A program made the translations under genes and the position numbers. This document shows positions 1,553-9,461 of a stretch of 9,461 nucleotides of DNA, in pieces. Each line of letters begins with the position of its first letter. The stretch's first letter is position 1. The notes below the pieces were generated by a model that ran no database searches, had not been told where the DNA came from, and saw nothing but the letters and a program-made list of their open reading frames with translations. This DNA comes from a virus (Duplodnaviria > Heunggongvirae > Uroviricota > Caudoviricetes). The stretch lies in the IMG/VR virus record IMGVR_UViG_2565956711_000008, one strand, 5' to 3'.

Positions 1553-1741
1553 TCACGAGGACTGAAGTTTCTCGCAATTAAAATTTATCAGTTTTACTTT
1601 CTGCTCTCTGGAAACGCCTGCTTCTTTTTTACCTGAGAGCATTTTTTCGCATTCTGATTTCGTTAGTTTAGATTTTGAATATCTTGTCCAGTTAGTAGGA
1701 GTGCCACCTTCCTTTTCAATAGTGGCGGTAATTTTATACAT
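1553..1741 (-). CDS. ydaC: Small Rac prophage protein of unknown function (YdaC-like), 62 aa
   Basis: ORF MYKITATIEKEGGTPTNWTRYSKSKLTKSECEKMLSGKKEAGVSREQKVKLINFNCEKLQSS. ATG at 1739-1741 is preceded by GGAGGTG and is embedded in the last codons of the ralR frame (overlapping genes). Position between xis and ralR matches the Rac gene order I recall. Confidence 0.6.
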   Translation of the reverse strand: MYKITATIEKEGGTPTNWTRYSKSKLTKSECEKMLSGKKEAGVSREQKVKLINFNCEKLQSS

Positions 1742-1928
1742 GAACACCTCCATTATTATTTCCAGTGGTTCGTTTATTTCATCGTTCGAGTGCTTCTTTT
1801 TCACTTCCACCATAACCGGTTCGGGATTCGCATCCGTTACACTTCGCTCGGTAATATCCTGAAATGGCTTTCACCGTTACTGATGGACAACCACAAAATG
1901 GACATGGTTTAACATTGTCATATCTCAT
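1734..1928 (-). pseudogene. ralR: RalR (Lar) type I toxin / restriction-alleviation gene with an internal in-frame TGA
   Basis: From ATG 1926-1928 the frame reads MRYDNVKPCPFCGCPSVTVKAISGYYRAKCNGCESRTGYGGSEKEALER, then TGA at 1779-1781, then continues open as NKRTTGNNNGGVHV to TAA at 1734-1736, overlapping the ydaC ATG. My recollection of RalR has Trp (TGG) at the stop position, so this looks like a TGG-to-TGA change giving a 49-aa product. Confidence 0.62.
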
Positions 1929-1976: not shown

Positions 1977-1996
1977 GGCTGAATTATTCCTCTGAA

Positions 1997-2794
1997 TTAT
2001 CGATTACACTGTATTCCCCCGGTTAATACAGAGGAATCTGCAGGATCGATTGTCAGTGGTTCCTTTTCATCCATTGATACTGCACGCTGGATCTCAATTG
2101 ATACGGGCAGATATTTGAACAGGCGACGAATAGCCGTTTTCTTTGCCATTTCTTCCCAGTGAGTTACCCACGGCCCGTTATTACCAGCTTTACTCTGGCT
2201 GCGCACCAGCTCAATCTGTTTGCGCGTCATAACTTCAAACTGAGTACCTCCGTCTTTCAGTCTTGCGACAGCATAGACGTGGGTAACAGGGGCATCTTCG
2301 TTTTCTCCTGGGCGGTGTATTAACTTTTCATCAAGGCCAAATTCGAAATTAAACTCGTCACCTTCACGGACAACACGGGCTGACAAGCTGGCGATTTGAC
2401 CTGAACGGCGAGCCAGATCAATCATGCCGCGATAGCCAATGATTAGCTGAACGTTTTTTTTACCGCTCTTTTCGTTTTTATTACCAAAAGGCAGTAAATA
2501 TGCATGACCGAGGGCGCTACCGGGCTCAAGTCCGAGCTGTGAACACTGTACGATTGCACTGACAAAACTCATAGTGTCACAGTTTCCTAACGCCGGAACT
2601 TTACGAATTTCTGTGGTGGCGATACGGATCATACGTTCAGCCGTCATATGGCGTGGAAGAGCTGCTGCCAGTTGCTCTTTCATTGATGGCTGGTTAATAA
2701 AACTAATCACGTCGTTATTTTTAATTGCTGCTGGTGCACGGTTTCCCTGAGTTTTTTGCAGATCGGCTTTTGCGATTGGTGGTTGCTTAGTCAT
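1997..2794 (-). CDS. recT: RecT single-strand annealing recombinase, with altered C-terminal tail
   Basis: ORF from ATG 2792-2794 ([21 protein letters not shown]...) to TAA 1997-1999; AAGGAA lies upstream. Start overlaps the recE stop (ATGACTAAG), the classical recE-recT coupling. Matches my recollection of RecT except the last residues, which read GIQCNR instead of [10 protein letters not shown]. Confidence 0.9.
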
Positions 2795-4137
2795 TTGCAT
2801 ATTCCTTAGCCCAGCGGGGCAGTGATAACGTCTTAATAGCTGGCCATTCATCGGTATTGAGGCAGTCAGCCAGGGTTCGCAGATTGCGGTGATATTCCAG
2901 CTGACCTGCCAGTTTTGCTTCTTCGCCCATCATGAAAATTTCAACCGGATAACGTCCGCATTCAATAGTTGTGCTGGCAACCAGAAAAACGAAAGTTGGC
3001 TGCACTCCAAACTGTGCTTCATAACCGTCACTGTAGAATGCATCCTGAACGTGATAGCGGTAGTCGTAATAAGCGGTTTTGAATCGTTGAATATCCGCCG
3101 TAGTTTTCACGTCCATGATCCAGTGAAATTCAGGGATAATTTTGTCCGGACGGCACCGACACAAAATTGCTGTTTCAGGATCTTCCCAGTAAATTGATGA
3201 TTCAGCGTGTCCGGCGCTTTCAACAAGCCATTGCCCCAGCGGCAAAGCCATAACGCTCTGATACATGAGTTCAATTTTCCGGCCTTCTTCGGCAGTGATA
3301 ACCGTTTTTCCTGTGCTTGCGCATTCCCTCAGAAACGCTTTCTCTTCTTCTTTTCCGGAGTTTGTCCGGCGGTTAAATTCAGGTGCTACGATAAAGCGGT
3401 TACTGAATTCTTCCGGCTCAAGTACCCGGCAGTGGAAAGCGGTTCCTAAATCGAGCGTTTTTGTCTTTGTGGTGTCCACGGGGGCATTTTTACGCCACAA
3501 ATACAGTGCCGGAGTATCAGCAATGTCATCGAGCTGAGACTTACTGACACCGGGACCCGCGTGGTAATTCTCATTCGAAATTCCGTAATAAATACCTGGC
3601 TCTATGTCTTCTACGATTACGGGATCTGCGACTTCGCCAGTTTCATCACTGCAATCGCGATGCGGATCGCTGCCAGCATTCTCATTGTGCGGATGTTCAG
3701 CGCCTTCCATTTCCTCCGGATCATTTTCCTTAGCTTCAACCTGACTCTCTTCATCGAATGTTTCCTGGTATGTTGCGTCGCCCATCACCGCACCACAGTC
3801 AGGGCAGTTATCCCCGCCAGTCTGGCCGCAGGCATTGCAGGCTATTTCCGGTTCCTGTTGCACTACTGGCTCAGGTTGATTCATATCCGGGCTGGTTTTT
3901 TCCGTTTCTGGCTGGTTCTGGTACACACAATCGCGAGTCTGGATCCCCTTTACCCATTTCGGATCGTTCGGGTCGCTAATTCCGTCAACAAATTCACCAC
4001 GTGATGCAGCAAGCAATTTATCGGCATCGACAGGATTTTTTGATGGAATGTTTTTCCGGGCTTCATGGAGTTCTGCCCGCAGTTCCTGATATTTCGCATC
4101 AACAGAATTTACCTGTGACTGAGCATCCAGCGGCTGG
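2787..4137 (-). pseudogene. recE: 5'-truncated recE (exonuclease VIII) remnant retaining the complete C-terminal nuclease domain
   Basis: Minus-strand frame is open from the stop at 4182-4184 down to TAA 2787-2789. Translation from about 4137 downward ([23 protein letters not shown]...[10 protein letters not shown]...[13 protein letters not shown]) matches roughly the C-terminal half of RecE as I recall it. No recE N-terminal half is present; upstream the frame runs into antisense IS1. First in-frame start is the TTG at 4014-4016, with no obvious Shine-Dalgarno. Confidence 0.85.
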
Positions 4138-4351
4138 CTGGCCGCTGTATGAATCCCGCCTGAAGGGAAAGCTGCACGTAATCAGCAAGCGATATACGCA
4201 GCGAATTGAGCGGCATAACCTGAATCTGAGGCAGCACCTGGCACGGCTGGGACGGAAGTCGCTGTCGTTCTCAAAATCGGTGGAGCTGCATGACAAAGTC
4301 ATCGGGCATTATCTGAACATAAAACACTATCAATAAGTTGGAGTCATTACC
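4135..4351 (+). mobile_element. Partial IS1 (3' terminal ~217 bp: insB 3' end and right terminal inverted repeat)
   Basis: Plus-strand translation [66 protein letters not shown] equals the C-terminus of IS1 InsB as I recall it. It is followed by the IS1 terminal sequence AAGTTGGAGTCATTACC ending at 4351. The rest of IS1 is absent. Confidence 0.85.
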
Positions 4352-4551
4352 GCGCTCTTTACTCATTCGTTTACAACGTGGGTGCTGGCAATTTCAGAAC
4401 ATCGACGCTTCTTCGCAAAATAAACCAGGGCGATATCAAAGGCGCATGTGATCAGCTACGTCGCTGGACATATGCTGGCGGTAAGCAATGGAAAGGTCTC
4501 ATGACTCGTCGTGAGATTGAGCGTGAAATCTGTTTGTGGGGTCAGCAATGA
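4352..4551 (+). pseudogene. 3' fragment of a lambdoid phage lysozyme (endolysin R-like) gene, truncated by IS1
   Basis: Immediately after the IS1 end the frame reads [65 protein letters not shown], the C-terminus of the lysozyme family I recall from E. coli lambdoid prophages. Stop TGA at 4549-4551 overlaps the Rz ATG (ATGA). No N-terminal catalytic part and no start codon. Confidence 0.8.
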
Positions 4552-5012
4552 ACAGAGTAACCGCGATTATCTCCGCTCTGGTTATCTGCATCATCGTCTG
4601 CCTGTCATGGGCTGTTAATCATTACCGTGATAACGCCATTACCTACAAAGCCCAGCGCGACAAAAATGCCAGAGAACTGAAGCTGGCGTACGCGGCAATT
4701 ACTGACATGCAGATGCGTCAGCGTGATGTTGCTGCGCTCGATGCAAAATACACGAAGGAGTTAGCTGATGCGAAAGCTGAAAATGATGCTCTGCGTGATG
4801 ATGTTGCCGCTGGTCGTCGTCGGTTGCACATCAAAGCAGTCTGTCAGTCAGTGCGTGAAGCCACCACCGCCTCCGGCGTGGATAATGCAGCCTCCCCCCG
4901 ACTGGCAGACACCGCTGAACGGGATTATTTCACCCTCCGGGAACGACTGGTAATGATGCAGGCCCAACTTGAAGGTGCTCAGCAATACATAACCGAGCAG
5001 TGTTTAAAGTAA
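4548..5012 (+). CDS. rzpR: Rz-like inner-membrane spanin, 154 aa
   Basis: [55 protein letters not shown]... is near-identical to lambda Rz as I recall it: N-terminal transmembrane helix, coiled-coil periplasmic domain. ATG overlaps the lysozyme-fragment stop. Confidence 0.88.
4768..4953 (+). CDS. rzoR: Rz1-like outer-membrane lipoprotein spanin, embedded in the +1 frame of Rz
   Basis: [57 protein letters not shown]...: signal peptide with lipobox (VVGC) and the proline-rich mature region typical of lambda Rz1. Wholly nested inside Rz. Confidence 0.85.
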
Positions 5013-5149
5013 AATCTTAACTACAATATGATTCATTTTGATGATTGTTTCATAAGGAACAGTGAAGTAAGATCTAAGAGGAGTTAAATTTTATACAGTA
5101 TAATCATAATATTGCAGCAAGGTGGTTATAATTGAAAGAATATTTAGAT
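5013..5149 (+). promoter_or_regulatory. AT-rich upstream region of trkG (promoter not resolved)
   Basis: 137-bp strongly AT-rich gap. Consensus -10 hexamer TATAAT at 5099-5104 but no convincing -35 at the right spacing. AAGGTGG at 5119-5125. Confidence 0.3.
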
Positions 5150-6607
5150 ATGAATACATCTCATGTAAGAGTTGTTACTCATATGTGTGGGTTCTTGGTT
5201 TGGCTCTATAGTCTTTCAATGTTGCCACCAATGGTTGTAGCATTGTTTTATAAAGAAAAAAGCCTGTTCGTTTTCTTTATAACTTTCGTTATATTTTTTT
5301 GCATTGGTGGCGGAGCGTGGTATACAACTAAGAAATCTGGCATTCAATTACGTACCCGTGATGGGTTTATTATAATTGTAATGTTTTGGATTTTGTTTTC
5401 TGTTATTAGTGCATTCCCTTTATGGATTGACTCAGAACTTAATTTAACGTTCATTGATGCTCTGTTTGAAGGGGTTTCTGGAATAACAACAACAGGAGCA
5501 ACTGTAATTGATGATGTTAGTTCATTACCTCGGGCATATTTGTACTATCGGTCACAGTTAAATTTTATAGGTGGTTTAGGAGTTATTGTTCTGGCGGTTG
5601 CAGTATTGCCATTATTGGGTATTGGTGGTGCAAAGCTTTATCAGTCAGAAATGCCGGGGCCATTTAAGGATGACAAACTCACTCCCCGCCTGGCCGATAC
5701 GTCACGGACACTGTGGATAACTTATTCTTTATTAGGTATTGCTTGTATTGTCTGTTATAGACTTGCAGGAATGCCTTTGTTTGATGCTATTTGTCACGGG
5801 ATTTCCACAGTTTCGCTTGGTGGTTTCTCAACTCATAGCGAGAGTATCGGATATTTTAATAACTATTTGGTTGAGCTGGTGGCTGGTTCTTTTTCCCTGC
5901 TATCGGCTTTCAACTTCACTCTTTGGTATATTGTTATTAGCAGAAAAACGATAAAACCTTTAATCAGAGATATTGAACTTCGTTTCTTTCTGTTAATAGC
6001 CTTAGGGGTGATCATTGTTACCTCTTTCCAGGTCTGGCATATAGGTATGTATGACTTGCATGGAAGTTTTATTCATTCGTTTTTTCTTGCCAGCTCCATG
6101 CTCACTGATAATGGTTTAGCTACGCAGGATTATGCAAACTGGCCCACGCACACGATAGTGTTTTTGCTGTTGTCAAGTTTCTTTGGGGGATGTATAGGTT
6201 CAACCTGTGGTGGAATTAAGTCACTTCGATTTCTTATACTTTTCAAACAAAGCAAACACGAGATAAATCAGCTTTCTCATCCCAGAGCGTTGTTGAGTGT
6301 AAATGTAGGAGGGAAGATAGTTACAGATCGTGTAATGAGGTCTGTATGGAGTTTCTTTTTTCTTTATACTCTCTTCACGGTGTTTTTTATACTGGTGTTA
6401 AATGGTATGGGATATGATTTTCTTACATCATTTGCAACAGTGGCTGCATGTATTAATAATATGGGATTAGGTTTTGGGGCTACTGCATCGTCATTCGGAG
6501 TGCTTAATGACATTGCAAAGTATTTAATGTGCATAGCTATGATTCTTGGTCGCCTTGAAATTTATCCTGTTATTATATTGTTTTCAGGTTTTTTTTGGCG
6601 CTCCTAA
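5150..6607 (+). CDS. trkG: TrkG potassium uptake protein (TrkH/TrkG family), 485 aa
   Basis: ORF MNTSHVRVVTHMCGFLVWLYSLSMLPP... to TAA 6605-6607, matching my recollection of Rac TrkG. Multi-pass membrane protein with the family glycine motifs (e.g. TTTGATV, GGLG). Markedly AT-rich relative to flanking phage genes. The ORF is also open from TTG 5132, which has a better-spaced Shine-Dalgarno. Confidence 0.9.
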   Translation: MNTSHVRVVTHMCGFLVWLYSLSMLPPMVVALFYKEKSLFVFFITFVIFFCIGGGAWYTTKKSGIQLRTRDGFIIIVMFWILFSVISAFPLWIDSELNLTFIDALFEGVSGITTTGATVIDDVSSLPRAYLYYRSQLNFIGGLGVIVLAVAVLPLLGIGGAKLYQSEMPGPFKDDKLTPRLADTSRTLWITYSLLGIACIVCYRLAGMPLFDAICHGISTVSLGGFSTHSESIGYFNNYLVELVAGSFSLLSAFNFTLWYIVISRKTIKPLIRDIELRFFLLIALGVIIVTSFQVWHIGMYDLHGSFIHSFFLASSMLTDNGLATQDYANWPTHTIVFLLLSSFFGGCIGSTCGGIKSLRFLILFKQSKHEINQLSHPRALLSVNVGGKIVTDRVMRSVWSFFFLYTLFTVFFILVLNGMGYDFLTSFATVAACINNMGLGFGATASSFGVLNDIAKYLMCIAMILGRLEIYPVIILFSGFFWRS

Positions 6608-6693
6608 TATATGGCTGATTTATAATTGTGAGTTTAATATTATGTTGACTCACTCATTGATCCAATACCTAACTTTACCAGCAACACCTCCGC

Positions 6694-6729
6694 CCCCAGC
6701 AGCACTGGCTGCTGGGGTGCGTTTTATTC
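6694..6729 (+). terminator. Rho-independent terminator downstream of trkG
   Basis: Perfect 10-bp GC-rich stem CCCCAGCAGC (6694-6703), loop ACTG, GCTGCTGGGG (6708-6717), then TGCGTTTTATTC. Begins 87 nt after the trkG stop. Confidence 0.55.
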
Positions 6730-6766
6730 ATAAAGCAAGGCTGTATGAGCGAGAAATTAAAGATAG

Positions 6767-8812
6767 TCTAACGGGAAATACACCGCACAGGATGCAACGA
6801 CAGCACAGAAAGGGATAATCCAGCTAAGCAGCGCGACCAACAGCACGTCTGAAACGCTGGCGGCAACGCCAAAGGCAGTAAAATCAGCCTATGACAATGC
6901 AGAGAAACGTCTGCAGAAAGACCAGAACGGCGCTGATATACCCGATAAGGGACGCTTCCTGAACAACATTAACGCGGTCAGTAAAACAGACTTTGCTGAT
7001 AAGCGTGGTATGCGTTATGTGCGGGTTAACGCTCCTGCAGGTGCAACATCTGGAAAATATTACCCTGTTGTTGTTATGCGTTCTGCTGGCTCAGTAAGCG
7101 AACTGGCATCAAGGGTCATTATCACCACGGCAACGCGAACCGCAGGCGATCCGATGAATAACTGCGAGTTTAACGGATTTGTTATGCCTGGTGGCTGGAC
7201 TGACAGGGGGCGTTATGCTTATGGAATGTTCTGGCAATATCAAAACAATGAACGAGCCATCCACTCAATAATGATGAGTAATAAGGGCGATGATTTGCGC
7301 TCTGTGTTCTATGTTGATGGCGCTGCTTTCCCTGTTTTTGCGTTTATCGAAGATGGCCTGTCAATATCCGCACCTGGTGCTGATCTCGTTGTTAATGATA
7401 CGACCTATAAGTTTGGGGCAACAAATCCAGCGACTGAATGTATCGCGGCGGACGTTATCCTTGATTTTAAGAGTGGGCGTGGTTTTTATGAGTCTCATTC
7501 GTTAATCGTTAACGATAACTTGTCGTGCAAAAAACTTTTTGCCACAGACGAAATTGTAGCGCGTGGTGGTAATCAGATTCGAATGATAGGTGGGGAGTAT
7601 GGGGCATTATGGCGTAATGATGGCGCTAAAACTTACCTGCTGCTTACCAATCAAGGTGATGTTTATGGTGGATGGAATACATTAAGACCGTTTGCTATTG
7701 ATAACGCAACCGGCGAACTGGTTATTGGAACCAAGCTGTCTGCAAGTCTGAACGGTAACGCATTGACAGCAACAAAGCTGCAAACGCCAAGACTGGTTTC
7801 TGGGGTTGAGTTTGATGGTTCAAAAGATATTACTTTAACCGCCGCGCATGTGGCTGCTTTTGCCAGAAGGGCAACGGATACATATGCCGATGCGGATGGT
7901 GGCGTTCCCTGGAATGCCGAATCAGGCGCTTACAATGTCACCCGCTCTGGCGACAGCTATATTCTGGTTAACTTCTATACCGGAGTCGGAAGTTGCCGGA
8001 CCCTGCAGATGAAGGCGCATTACAGAAATGGTGGTCTGTTCTACCGTTCTTCAAGAGACGGTTATGGTTTTGAGGAAGACTGGGCAGAAGTTTATACCTC
8101 GAAAAATCTTCCACCAGAAAGCTACCCAGTCGGCGCACCAATCCCGTGGCCATCAGATACCGTTCCGTCTGGTTATGCCCTGATGCAGGGGCAGACTTTT
8201 GACAAATCTGCTTACCCGAAACTTGCAGCCGCTTATCCGTCAGGCGTGATCCCTGATATGCGTGGCTGGACGATTAAGGGCAAGCCCGCCAGTGGTCGGG
8301 CCGTATTGTCTCAGGAACAGGACGGCATTAAATCACACACCCACAGCGCCAGCGTATCCAGTACGGATTTGGGGACGAAAACCACATCGTCGTTTGATTA
8401 CGGCACTAAATCCACGAATAACACTGGTGCGCATACTCATAGTTTAAGTGGCAGCACGAATGCAGCTGGTAATCACAGCCATAGAGATGGCCGTCGATTT
8501 AACCCCAGTGTTTTTAAAGATACTTATCAATATGGTTATACAAGCTCAGGTCAAAATACCTGGGGTGTACAAGGCTCAGTAGGTATGTCTACGGGGTGGT
8601 TAGCTAATACCAGTACAGATGGTAATCATAGCCACTCACTGTCCGGCACAGCAGCATCTGCAGGTGCACACGCGCATACTGTCGGTATTGGTGCTCATAC
8701 GCACTCCGTTGCGATTGGTTCACATGGACACACCATCACCGTTAACGCTGCTGGTAATGCGGAAAACACCGTCAAAAACATCGCATTTAACTATATTGTG
8801 AGGCTTGCATAA
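6767..8812 (+). pseudogene. stfR: 5'-truncated side tail fibre gene (lambda Stf / Rac StfR-like), C-terminal ~680 codons
   Basis: Frame is open from the stop at 6764-6766 to TAA 8810-8812. From about 6790 it reads [31 protein letters not shown]..., the conserved internal tail-fibre motif (lambda Stf has it mid-protein). It ends [31 protein letters not shown], identical to the lambda Stf C-terminus as I recall it. No N-terminal region is present; the first in-frame ATG is at 7010 and lacks a good ribosome-binding site. Confidence 0.85.
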
Positions 8813-9396
8813 TGGCATTCAGAATGAGTGAACAACCACGGACCATAAAAATTTATAATCTGCTGGTCGGAACTAATGAATTTATTGGTGAAGGTGACGC
8901 ATATATTCCGCCTCATACAGGTCTGCCAGCAAACAGTACCGATATTGCACCACCAGATATTCCTGCTGGCTTTGTGGCTGTTTTCAACAGTGATGAGGCA
9001 TCGTGGCATCTCGTTGAAGACCATCGGGGTAAAACGGTTTATGACGTGGCTTCCGGCGACGCGTTATTTATTTCTGAACTCGGTCCGTTACCGGAAAATG
9101 TTACCTGGTTGTCGCCGGGAGGGGAATATCAGAAGTGGAACGGCACAGCCTGGGTGAAAGATGCAGAAGCAGAAAAACTGTTCCGGATCCGGGAGGCGGA
9201 AGAAACAAAAAACAGCCTGATGCAGGTAGCCAGTGAGCATATTGCGCCGCTTCAGGATGCTGCAGATCTGGAAATTGCAACGGAGGAAGAAACCTCGTTG
9301 CTGGAAGCCTGGAAGAAGTATCGGGTGTTGCTGAACCGTGTTAATACAACAACTGCACCGGATATTGAATGGCCAACAGTACCCATTATCGAATAG
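8812..9396 (+). CDS. tfaR: Tail fibre assembly protein (lambda Tfa-like), 194 aa
   Basis: [51 protein letters not shown]... to TAG 9394-9396. ATG overlaps the stf stop (TAATG). Size and position immediately after stf match the lambda stf-tfa pair. Confidence 0.88.
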
Positions 9397-9448: not shown

Positions 9449-9461
9449 GGCTGTATTTTAA

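What the first reader, a model, noticed from the sequence alone, without database searches (positions are those of the whole stretch)
6608..6800. Second junction: trkG terminator followed directly by a 5'-truncated side tail fibre gene
Only about 160 bp separate the trkG stop from the point where tail-fibre homology begins (about 6790, at the conserved KGI(V/I)QLSSATNST motif that sits mid-protein in lambda Stf). In the canonical Rac order I recall, several genes and an IS5-interrupted lom lie between trkG and stfR, and stfR is far longer. The tail-fibre frame has stops at 6758-6766 and no start, so the N-terminal shaft is missing. The conserved motif is a known recombination hotspot in tail-fibre genes, which may explain why the break falls there.
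Basis: partly seen in the sequence, partly recalled or inferred. Interest (0 to 1): 0.45.

Follow-up and report, generated by a model that had tools for sequence, protein, structure and literature searches.

The report
Deletion scar in decayed Rac prophage
This is an ordinary deletion scar in a decaying Rac prophage of E. coli, where about 24 kb of phage genes were lost and the start of the gene next to trkG was joined to the middle of a tail-fibre gene; the one unusual point is that at least seven different deletions in other strains start at the same nucleotide.

Summary
trkG ends at 6607. A strong intrinsic terminator lies at 6694-6717. The tail-fibre reading frame is closed by stops at 6758-6760 and 6764-6766 and has no start codon before ATG 7010.

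The 163-bp "spacer" (6608-6770) is not foreign DNA. It is the native Rac trkG-ynaK intergenic region plus the first 8 codons of ynaK (161/163 identical to K-12).

The true breakpoint is a 3-bp microhomology (CTA, 6768-6770). It joins ynaK codon 8 to codon 497 of a 1176-aa side tail fibre. About 24 kb of packaging, head and tail genes were lost relative to an intact Rac-type prophage.

The break lies about 20 nt upstream of the KGIIQLSS motif, in the linker between two Phage_fiber_2 repeats. The left partner, ynaK, has no such motif, so recombination at the motif does not explain the break.

The same junction occurs in one of 5,426 complete E. coli genomes (EC09, annotated there as a pseudogene), three metagenome contigs and two IMG/VR contigs, so it is real. 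It is routine prophage decay.

One thing is worth noting. The left endpoint "AGTCTA|" is shared by at least seven distinct deletion alleles with different right partners. This is a one-sided breakpoint hotspot whose cause I could not resolve.

The parts
5150..6607 (+). trkG (Trk potassium transporter, intact)
   Evidence: PGAP annotation of the 99.95%-identical EC09 record, mapped to the window. Pfam TrkH, E = 1e-144.
6608..6744 (+). Native Rac trkG-ynaK intergenic region (not foreign spacer DNA)
   Evidence: Collinear with K-12 1425240-1425376. Positions 6608-6770 are 161/163 identical to K-12.
6694..6727 (+). Predicted intrinsic terminator of trkG (GC-rich hairpin 6694-6717 plus T-rich tail)
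   Evidence: Terminator scan. RNA fold -27.2 kcal/mol, z = -4.5. Conserved in 112 of 126 Rac-type loci.
6745..6771 (+). ynaK remnant: ATG plus 7 codons (MSEKLKIV), then a TAA stop created by the junction
   Evidence: Alignment to K-12, LR-46 and AMSCJX04 ynaK. Translation.
6762..6770 (.). Left-hand breakpoint hotspot GATAGTCTA, part of the near-palindrome GATAG-T-CTATC of intact ynaK. At least 7 different deletion alleles end at this TA and one ends 5 bp upstream.
6768..6770 (.). Deletion junction: CTA microhomology shared by ynaK (..AGTCTA|TCGCC) and stf (..TGGCTA|ACGGG)
   Evidence: Left- and right-anchored alignments to K-12, LR-46 and the intact Stf locus L006.
6770..8812 (+). 5'-truncated side tail fibre pseudogene: codons 497-1176 of a 1176-aa Stf, plus the stop
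   Evidence: 680 aa, 100% identical to L006 Stf residues 497-1176. Pfam Phage_fiber_2, Gp34_trimer, gp37_C and Collar are present, phage_tail_N is absent. PGAP marks it as a pseudogene missing its N-terminus.
6797..6919 (+). Surviving (second) Phage_fiber_2 repeat, carrying [13 protein letters not shown]
   Evidence: Pfam PF03406 on residues 10-50 of the fragment. The intact protein has two copies, at residues 466 and 510.
7010..7012 (+). First in-frame start codon after the stops (would give a 600-aa ORF). No promoter-like site was found between the terminator and this codon.
   Evidence: ORF list. Promoter scan.
8812..9396 (+). tfaR tail fibre assembly gene (intact)
   Evidence: PGAP annotation. 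Pfam Caudo_TAP, E = 2e-42.

Best explanation
Positions 6608-6800 hold a deletion scar in a cryptic Rac prophage. An illegitimate, microhomology-mediated recombination at a shared CTA joined codon 8 of ynaK, the gene just downstream of the trkG terminator, to codon 497 of the side tail fibre gene. The join removed about 24 kb: the rest of ynaK, a GREB1-related gene, terS, terL, portal, head and tail genes, J, lom and the 5' 42% of stf. It may have happened in one step, or as a second step in an already shortened prophage.

What remains is an 8-codon ynaK stub ending in a junction-made TAA, followed out of frame by a start-less stf fragment that is most likely silent. It sits behind a strong terminator with no promoter-like site. 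tfaR downstream is intact.

Shown here: the two parental sequences, the crossover point, the missing domains, and the presence of the junction in independent assemblies. Inferred: the recombination mechanism, the one-step versus two-step history, and the lack of expression.
For: - **The window is Rac.** It is 99.95% identical to the ttcA-adjacent Rac remnant of E. coli EC09, running from intR to tfaR.
- **Left parent.** Window 6401-6770 is collinear with K-12 trkG-ynaK up to ynaK codon 8.
- **Right parent.** Window 6768 onward is 100% identical to stf of LR-46 and to intact Stf genes, starting at codon 497 of 1176.
- **Junction.** The two parents overlap only in CTA.
- **Intact gene order and deletion size** come from CFSAN061771.
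- **Pseudogene status.** phage_tail_N is absent and there is no start before 7010. PGAP calls it a pseudogene.
- **Terminator present, no promoter-like site after it**.
- **Independent sightings.** One complete genome, three metagenome contigs and two IMG/VR contigs, including one contig (L008) with the canonical pinR right arm.
Against: - A 3-bp microhomology is close to what chance gives, so the join could equally be called blunt or near-blunt.
- The left endpoint recurs in at least 7 alleles. This argues that the position was not chosen by random illegitimate recombination alone. Something site-specific may create the break.
- The order of events is unresolved. LR-46 has a 100% identical right arm but keeps ynaK. 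ET565 shares the rare trkG haplotype and the same left endpoint but carries a different stf allele.
- Expression of the remnant was not measured.
Confidence: 0.88

Rival explanations
1. The break was made by homologous or unequal recombination at the conserved KGI(V/I)QLSSATNST (Phage_fiber_2) motif.
For: - The motif is a repeat whose copy number differs among Stf alleles.
- Nucleotide homology to K-12 stfR begins exactly at the motif, position 6789.
- Right endpoints of other trkG-stf deletions fall within a few hundred bp of it: CFSAN061772 at the equivalent of window 6948, AMSCJX04 at 6984, and LR-46 and ET565 at about codons 341-345.
Against: - The crossover is at 6768-6770, about 20 nt upstream of the motif, in the inter-repeat linker.
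- The left parent is ynaK, which has no motif and shares only CTA.
- The 6789 boundary with K-12 is a repeat-number difference, not the deletion breakpoint.
Confidence: 0.03
2. The left end of the deletion was set by a site-specific DNA break or recombinase at ynaK codon 8, and only the right end was chosen by microhomology. Candidates are a packaging (pac-type) cut of the Rac-type phage, a nuclease acting on the GATAG-T-CTATC near-palindrome, or a Pin-invertase quasi-site. On this reading the window's junction is one product of a recurrent, polar process.
For: - **Seven distinct alleles share the endpoint AGTCTA|** with different right partners: stf (the window), tail-tube 3' end (ET565), tfa/tfa' hairpin (SCZE5 type, in 7 genomes), GREB1-like gene (EC01), major capsid gene (EC05), terS (BKQWHE) and an unidentified partner (L081). 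CFSAN061772, L133 and L134 end 5-16 nt upstream.
- **Clustering in an unbiased sample.** In an IMG/VR sample anchored on the terminator, 3 of 8 non-native alleles hit the same TA (P about 0.007) and 5 of 8 fall in the first 27 nt of a 264-nt gene.
- **One-sided.** All 113 loci that keep the ynaK body also keep the native left side.
- **More than one lineage.** The alleles lie on at least two trkG haplotypes.
- **Pin site resemblance.** The ynaK site matches the Rac Pin crossover site at 15 of 26 positions.
Against: - No enzyme or site was identified.
- The Pin-site match is marginal after multiple testing (about 0.03-0.06), and the junction lies 2-3 nt off the expected central dinucleotide.
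- No IS end lies at any of these junctions, although one contig has an IS3 inserted nearby.
- Several alleles were discovered through searches seeded with this very sequence, which inflates the count.
- Some alleles could be nested derivatives that re-used microhomology created by an earlier junction (CTAAC for ET565 to window, TAnCGGG for window to SCZE5).
- pac or cos of Rac-type phages is not mapped.
Confidence: 0.25
3. The tail-fibre remnant is still a working gene. A 600-aa C-terminal receptor-binding fragment would be translated from ATG 7010 together with TfaR.
For: - The remnant frame is uninterrupted for 680 codons and 100% identical to intact Stf.
- tfaR is intact.
- PGAP annotates a comparable internal-start 516-aa ORF as a CDS in ET565.
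Against: - There is no promoter-like site between the strong trkG terminator and 7010.
- The phage_tail_N domain that defines the prophage tail-fibre N-terminus is missing, and so are all the other tail genes.
- The perfect conservation is as easily explained by a recent deletion, or by gene conversion from the second stf copy in the genome (one search reports 2 places in EC09).
Confidence: 0.05
4. The junction is an assembly or chimera artefact.
For: Only one of 5,426 complete genomes carries it.
Against: The exact junction is present in six independent assemblies from different projects, each collinear over 2.7-9 kb.
Confidence: 0.01

Closest known systems
Rac cryptic prophage of E. coli K-12 (trkG-ynaK-ydaY-ynaA-lomR::IS5-stfR-tfaR-pinR)
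   Same: - Same chromosomal site next to ttcA.
- Same intR/xisR/ralR/recT/recE left arm.
- Same trkG with its terminator and the same ynaK 5' end (98-99% identity).
- Homologous stf 3' part and tfaR.
   Different: - K-12 keeps ynaK (itself truncated at nt 254), ydaY, a tape-measure fragment, IS5-split lomR and a full-length 1120-aa StfR.
- The window has none of these and keeps only stf codons 497-1176 of a two-repeat allele.
- In the window recE is cut by an IS1 fragment and the racC-ydaW region is gone.
Intact Rac-type prophages (for example E. coli CFSAN061771) and the intact 1176-aa Stf of CFSAN061769
   Same: - They provide both parental sequences of the junction.
- The window's stf remnant is 100% identical in protein to residues 497-1176 of the CFSAN061769 Stf.
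   Different: They carry the about 24 kb of ynaK-GREB1-terS-terL-portal-head-tail-J-lom-stf 5' DNA that the window lacks.
Other short trkG-stf deletion alleles (LR-46, ET565, CFSAN061772, AMSCJX04, SCZE5, EC01, EC05, BKQWHE)
   Same: - Same phenomenon: loss of late genes downstream of trkG, with 2-4 bp microhomology at the joins.
- Several use the identical left endpoint.
   Different: - Each has a different right endpoint and retained material.
- None has the window's ynaK8|stf497 join.
Short-homology illegitimate recombination in E. coli (the deletion class studied in lambda bio transducing-phage formation and plasmid deletions; from general knowledge)
   Same: Deletion between sites sharing only a few bases, with no recombinase site or IS at the join.
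   Different: Recurrence of one endpoint at single-nucleotide precision in many alleles is not the typical picture. No gyrase, topoisomerase or RecET involvement could be tested here.

Membership tests
Rac cryptic prophage | Integrated next to ttcA, with intR/xisR, recET and trkG in Rac order | tested here: met
   The window maps to the ttcA-adjacent element of EC09 and aligns with K-12 Rac at 98-99% over intR-recE and trkG.
Lambdoid side tail fibre (Stf) gene, functional | N-terminal prophage tail fibre domain (PF08400 phage_tail_N) and a start codon | tested here: not met
   PF08400 is present in the intact 1176-aa relative and absent from the window fragment. There are stops at 6758-6766 and the first start codon is at 7010.
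Lambdoid side tail fibre (Stf) gene, functional | C-terminal shaft and receptor-binding part (Phage_fiber_2, Gp34_trimer, Collar) followed by a tfa chaperone gene | tested here: met
   Pfam hits and an intact tfaR. 100% identity to residues 497-1176 of an intact Stf.
Rho-independent (intrinsic) terminator | GC-rich hairpin immediately followed by a U-rich tract, downstream of a stop codon | tested here: met
   Hairpin at 6694-6717 plus TGCGTTTTAT, -27.2 kcal/mol, z = -4.5. In vivo termination cannot be tested with these tools.
Homologous recombination at the Phage_fiber_2 motif | Both parental sequences share the motif across the crossover | tested here: not met
   The left parent is ynaK codon 8. 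The shared sequence is only CTA. The crossover is about 20 nt upstream of the motif.
Microhomology-mediated illegitimate deletion | Both parents identified, collinear on each side, sharing only a few bases at the join, with no mobile-element end | tested here: met
   Parents are K-12 or LR-46 ynaK and LR-46 or L006 stf, overlapping in CTA. No IS sequence lies at the join.
Pin/Gin/Hin-family invertase crossover site | 26-bp site (TTATCGAATACC-TC-GGTTTACAGGAA in Rac-type elements) with exchange at the central dinucleotide | tested here: not met
   The ynaK site matches 15 of 26 positions, marginal after multiple trials. The junction is 2-3 nt left of the centre and the right partners do not resemble the site.
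IS-mediated adjacent deletion | An IS end abutting the deletion junction | tested here: not met
   No IS sequence lies at 6745-6800. The IS1 fragment in the window is at the other junction, about 4136-4336. An IS3 end sits in ynaK codons 6-7 in only one unrelated contig, L133.

The most novel reading that the evidence does not exclude
The TA at ynaK codon 8 (window 6769-6770) is a one-sided hotspot at which a site-specific DNA break repeatedly starts deletions that strip the late genes from Rac-type prophages. The break might come from packaging (pac-type) cleavage of the Rac-type phage, or from a nuclease or recombinase acting on the GATAG-T-CTATC near-palindrome. On this reading, prophage domestication at this locus is partly programmed by the phage's own DNA-processing site rather than by random decay.
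Probability: 0.25. Interest if true: 0.5.

Novelty: already known. Interest (0 to 1): 0.2.

Why it matters
On its own the junction matters little. It is one more way in which Rac has decayed, and RefSeq already annotates it as a pseudogene. It is useful as a strain or lineage marker, and it cautions that the "spacer" and the K-12 homology boundary can mislead breakpoint calls in repeat-containing tail-fibre genes.

The recurrent endpoint would matter more if confirmed. It would give a concrete, testable case of a sequence-determined breakpoint that drives prophage degradation while always sparing the host-beneficial trkG cargo gene.

Tried and rejected
- **Foreign or IS origin of the spacer.** Rejected: 161/163 identical to the K-12 trkG-ynaK interval.
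- **Break at the conserved motif.** Rejected by the parental alignments.
- **trkG cargo-gene (moron) boundary at ynaK codon 8.** Rejected: a contig without trkG (L032) shares the ynaK 5' region from about 70 nt upstream of the ATG.
- **"GREB1-related" gene as a natural alternative to ynaK at a mosaic boundary.** Rejected: intact prophages carry both genes in tandem, so the EC01 form is another deletion, an in-frame fusion.
- **Pin invertase quasi-site.** 15 of 26 positions match, but in the wrong register.
- **IS5 (YTAR) or other IS target explanation.** The right parents do not fit and no IS end is present.
- **Chi-like GCTGCTGG in the terminator as a RecBCD stop.** It lies about 50 nt from the endpoint cluster, too far away.
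- **Rfam scan.** No RNA family in 6608-6800.
- **Scan of species-representative genomes for non-K-12 continuations after AGTCTA.** No hits.
- **Common-descent explanation for the shared endpoint.** Partly tenable for window and ET565, which share a trkG haplotype. Not tenable for the SCZE5 and EC01 types.
Full report
**What the window is.** The 9,461-bp window is 99.95% identical to the ttcA-adjacent Rac prophage remnant of E. coli EC09 (NZ_CM169492). It runs from intR to just past tfaR. PGAP annotates the following there:
- intR, xisR, a DUF1187 gene and ralR;
- a frameshifted recT;
- a recE fragment abutting an IS1 fragment;
- a partial rrrD and a lysis (Rz-like) gene;
- trkG, at window 5150-6607;
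- a "phage tail protein" pseudogene missing its N-terminus, at window 6791-8812;
- tfaR, at window 8812-9396.

**Checking the observation.**
- The trkG stop is at 6605-6607.
- A hairpin at 6694-6717 (10-pair stem in the scan, 13 pairs in the fold) followed by TGCGTTTTAT is the only terminator-like site in 6400-7100. It folds at -27.2 kcal/mol, z = -4.5 against shuffles.
- In the tail-fibre frame there is TAA at 6758-6760 and TAG at 6764-6766 (sequence). The first ATG, GTG or TTG is ATG 7010.
- K-12 Rac has ynaK, ydaY, ynaA, IS5-split lomR and a 3,363-bp stfR between trkG and tfaR.
- The KGIVQLSS motif sits at residue 361 of lambda orf-401, the N-terminal half of the split lambda stf.

**What the "spacer" is.** Window 6401-6770 is collinear with K-12 from inside trkG to 26 nt into ynaK. 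Positions 6608-6770 are 161/163 identical to K-12. The interval is therefore the native trkG 3' flank with its terminator, the ynaK 5' region, and ynaK codons 1-8 (ATG at 6745, MSEKLKIV). The junction creates a TAA directly after codon 8. No foreign or IS DNA is involved, and Rfam finds no RNA family here.

**Where the break is.**
- From 6768 onward the window is 100% identical to the stf of strain LR-46 and to intact "prophage tail fiber N-terminal domain-containing" genes in many genomes.
- In the intact 1,176-aa Stf of CFSAN061769, the match begins at codon 497. The 680-aa window fragment is 100% identical to residues 497-1176.
- Left-anchored and right-anchored alignments show the parents ...AAAGATAGTCTA|TCGCC (ynaK) and ...GACCTGGCTA|ACGGGAAAT (stf). 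They share only CTA, at 6768-6770.
- In the protein, the break falls in ...KAVKAAYDLA|[21 protein letters not shown]..., the linker between the two Phage_fiber_2 repeats. That is about 20 nt before the motif.
K-12 StfR has one repeat and this allele has two, so the K-12 alignment changes register there.
- The fragment keeps Phage_fiber_2, Gp34_trimer, gp37_C and Collar, but lacks the phage_tail_N domain.

**How much was lost.** In an essentially intact Rac-type prophage (CFSAN061771) the order is trkG, ynaK (a ParB-like ORF of about 262 aa), GREB1-related gene, 69-aa ORF, terS, terL, portal, head genes, tail tube, ydaY, tape measure, and so on to J, lom, stf, tfaR and pinR. From ynaK codon 9 to the position equivalent to window 6768 is about 24 kb.

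**Is the junction real, and how common is it?** A 161-nt query across the junction is fully covered in only 1 of 5,426 complete E. coli genomes, EC09. The exact 33-mer also occurs in three metagenome contigs and two IMG/VR contigs. All are collinear with the window over 2.7-9 kb. One of them (L008) continues into the canonical pinR/ynaE right arm. EC09 and L007 continue into a diguanylate cyclase plus sitABCD arm. The junction is real, rare, and has been reassorted with different right arms.

**Mechanism.** The simplest reading is an illegitimate, microhomology-mediated deletion. Whether it happened in one step is unresolved.
- LR-46 has a 100% identical right arm but keeps almost all of ynaK, 181 bp of unidentified DNA, and stf from about codon 345.
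- ET565 shares the window's rare trkG haplotype and the identical left endpoint. It retains 208 bp from the tail-tube/ydaY interval and a different stf allele.
- From an ET565-like intermediate, the window's join would use a 5-bp CTAAC microhomology.
- The remnant is probably silent. It lies behind a strong terminator, there is no promoter-like site up to 7010, and it is out of frame with the ynaK stub.

**The unexpected part: a recurrent left endpoint.** While looking for parents, I found that many other Rac decay alleles end at the same nucleotide. The known junctions are listed below.

| Allele | Junction | Right partner | Right parent |
|---|---|---|---|
| Window type | AGTCTA\|ACGGG | stf | GGCTA\| |
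| ET565 | AGTCTA\|ACCAG | tail-tube 3' end | CGATA\| |
| SCZE5 type (7 complete genomes) | AGTCTA\|GCGGG | hairpin between convergent tfa genes of the Pin-invertible segment | CGATA\| |
| EC01 | AGTCTA\|CCGGA | in-frame fusion to codon about 21 of the GREB1-related gene | CTTA\| |
| EC05 | AGTCTA\|CCGGT | major capsid gene | GAATA\| |
| BKQWHE | AGTCTA\|GCCGG | terS | not read (the blast overlap implies CTA\|) |
| L081 | AGTCTA\|CCTTC | unidentified | not known |

- Three further alleles end 5-16 nt upstream: CFSAN061772 (GATA|, a K-12-like Rac), L133 (an IS3 end inserted at codons 6-7) and L134, L138, L140 (codon 4).
- The remaining 228 nt of ynaK hold only four other endpoints plus K-12's own.
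- In the IMG/VR sample anchored on the terminator, which does not presuppose the endpoint, 3 of 8 non-native alleles share the TA (P about 0.007). Five of 8 lie in the first 27 nt.
- The hotspot is one-sided. All 113 loci that keep the ynaK body also keep the native left side.
- The alleles sit on at least two trkG haplotypes, so simple common descent does not explain them all.
- Every crossover is at a TA. Five of seven right partners read TAnCG, as does the left parent (TATCG).
- The left site is a near-palindrome, GATAG-T-CTATC.

**Explanations tested for the hotspot.**
- The trkG cargo-gene boundary is not here.
- The GREB1-related gene is not a natural alternative module.
- The Pin crossover site of Rac-type elements, TTATCGAATACCTCGGTTTACAGGAA, matches the ynaK site at 15 of 26 positions. 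The per-position P is 4e-4, which is marginal after about 100 trials. The junction is also 2-3 nt off the central dinucleotide, and the right partners do not resemble the site.
- No IS end lies at any of these joins.
- A packaging-type cut or another site-specific break remains possible but untested.
- Part of the count is inflated because several alleles surfaced through searches seeded with this sequence.

**Comparison with what is known, and verdict.** The locus is a member of the Rac cryptic prophage family. The stf piece fails the tests for a functional Stf gene, having no N-terminal domain and no start, and RefSeq already annotates it as a pseudogene. As a finding it is ordinary prophage decay. 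The only feature that might interest a specialist is the recurrent, one-sided breakpoint at ynaK codon 8, which I report as unexplained.

Noticed in passing
window 6762-6770; loci L005, L010, L012, L015, L081, L133, L134, L145, L146: At least seven different Rac deletion alleles with different right partners (stf, tail tube, tfa hairpin, GREB1-like gene, capsid gene, terS, one unknown) share the exact left endpoint AGTCTA| at ynaK codon 8. Three more end 5-16 nt upstream. The hotspot is one-sided and lies in the near-palindrome GATAG-T-CTATC. The cause is unknown.
   Followed up: partly
window about 4136-4551: This is the other junction of the remnant. recE is truncated and abuts a 201-bp IS1 transposase fragment (about 4136-4336). 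A 5'-truncated rrrD lysozyme gene follows (about 4354-4551), then an intact Rz-like lysis gene (4548-5012). The whole racC-ydaW early region of K-12 Rac is absent.
   Followed up: no
window 1984-2794: recT is annotated as frameshifted in the near-identical EC09 record, so the RecET system of this remnant is probably dead.
   Followed up: no
window 1553-1928: The RalA antitoxin sRNA (Rfam RF02694, 225 bits) lies at 1557-1735 on the + strand. ralR is annotated as only 150 nt here, against 195 nt in K-12. The rcbA position is annotated as a DUF1187 gene.
   Followed up: no
window 9155-9353: A full-length match to Rfam IS009 (RF02111, 227 bits) lies inside the tfaR coding region on the + strand.
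   Followed up: no
L001 11171-16407 (just beyond the window's right end at 9461): In EC09, LR-46, ET565 and contig L007, tfaR is followed by a sensor diguanylate cyclase and sitABCD instead of the canonical pinR-ynaE-ynaM arm. One metagenome contig with the same junction (L008) has the pinR arm. PMC4287979 describes dgcX as lying next to lambdoid prophage DNA to the left of uspF-ompN in strain SE11, which resembles this position. I did not compare the sequences.
   Followed up: partly
window 8269-8638; L004 about 10832: LR-46 lacks the 370 bp equivalent to window 8269-8638, in the His- and Gly-rich repeat part of stf. This is a second internal deletion, annotated there as a frameshift.
   Followed up: no
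window 6693 and 6700: Two C-for-T substitutions relative to K-12 fall in the 5' arm of the trkG terminator stem. They convert G-U pairs to G-C pairs, so this allele's hairpin is stronger. C6693 is shared with ET565.
   Followed up: no
L013 3441-3466 and 6494-6519; L012 5094-6972: Some Rac-type prophages carry a complete Pin-invertible tail-fibre segment, with gix-like 26-bp sites and alternative Sv/tfa cassettes in both orientations. K-12 and the window have only one cassette. The window has no close match to the crossover site; the best match has 8 mismatches.
   Followed up: partly
L015 4079-4975; L142 (reverse complement) 4392-5324: A 310-aa "GREB1-related protein" gene lies between ynaK and terS in intact Rac-type prophages. 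In EC01 it is fused in frame to the first 8 codons of ynaK. Its function in a phage packaging region is unclear.
   Followed up: no
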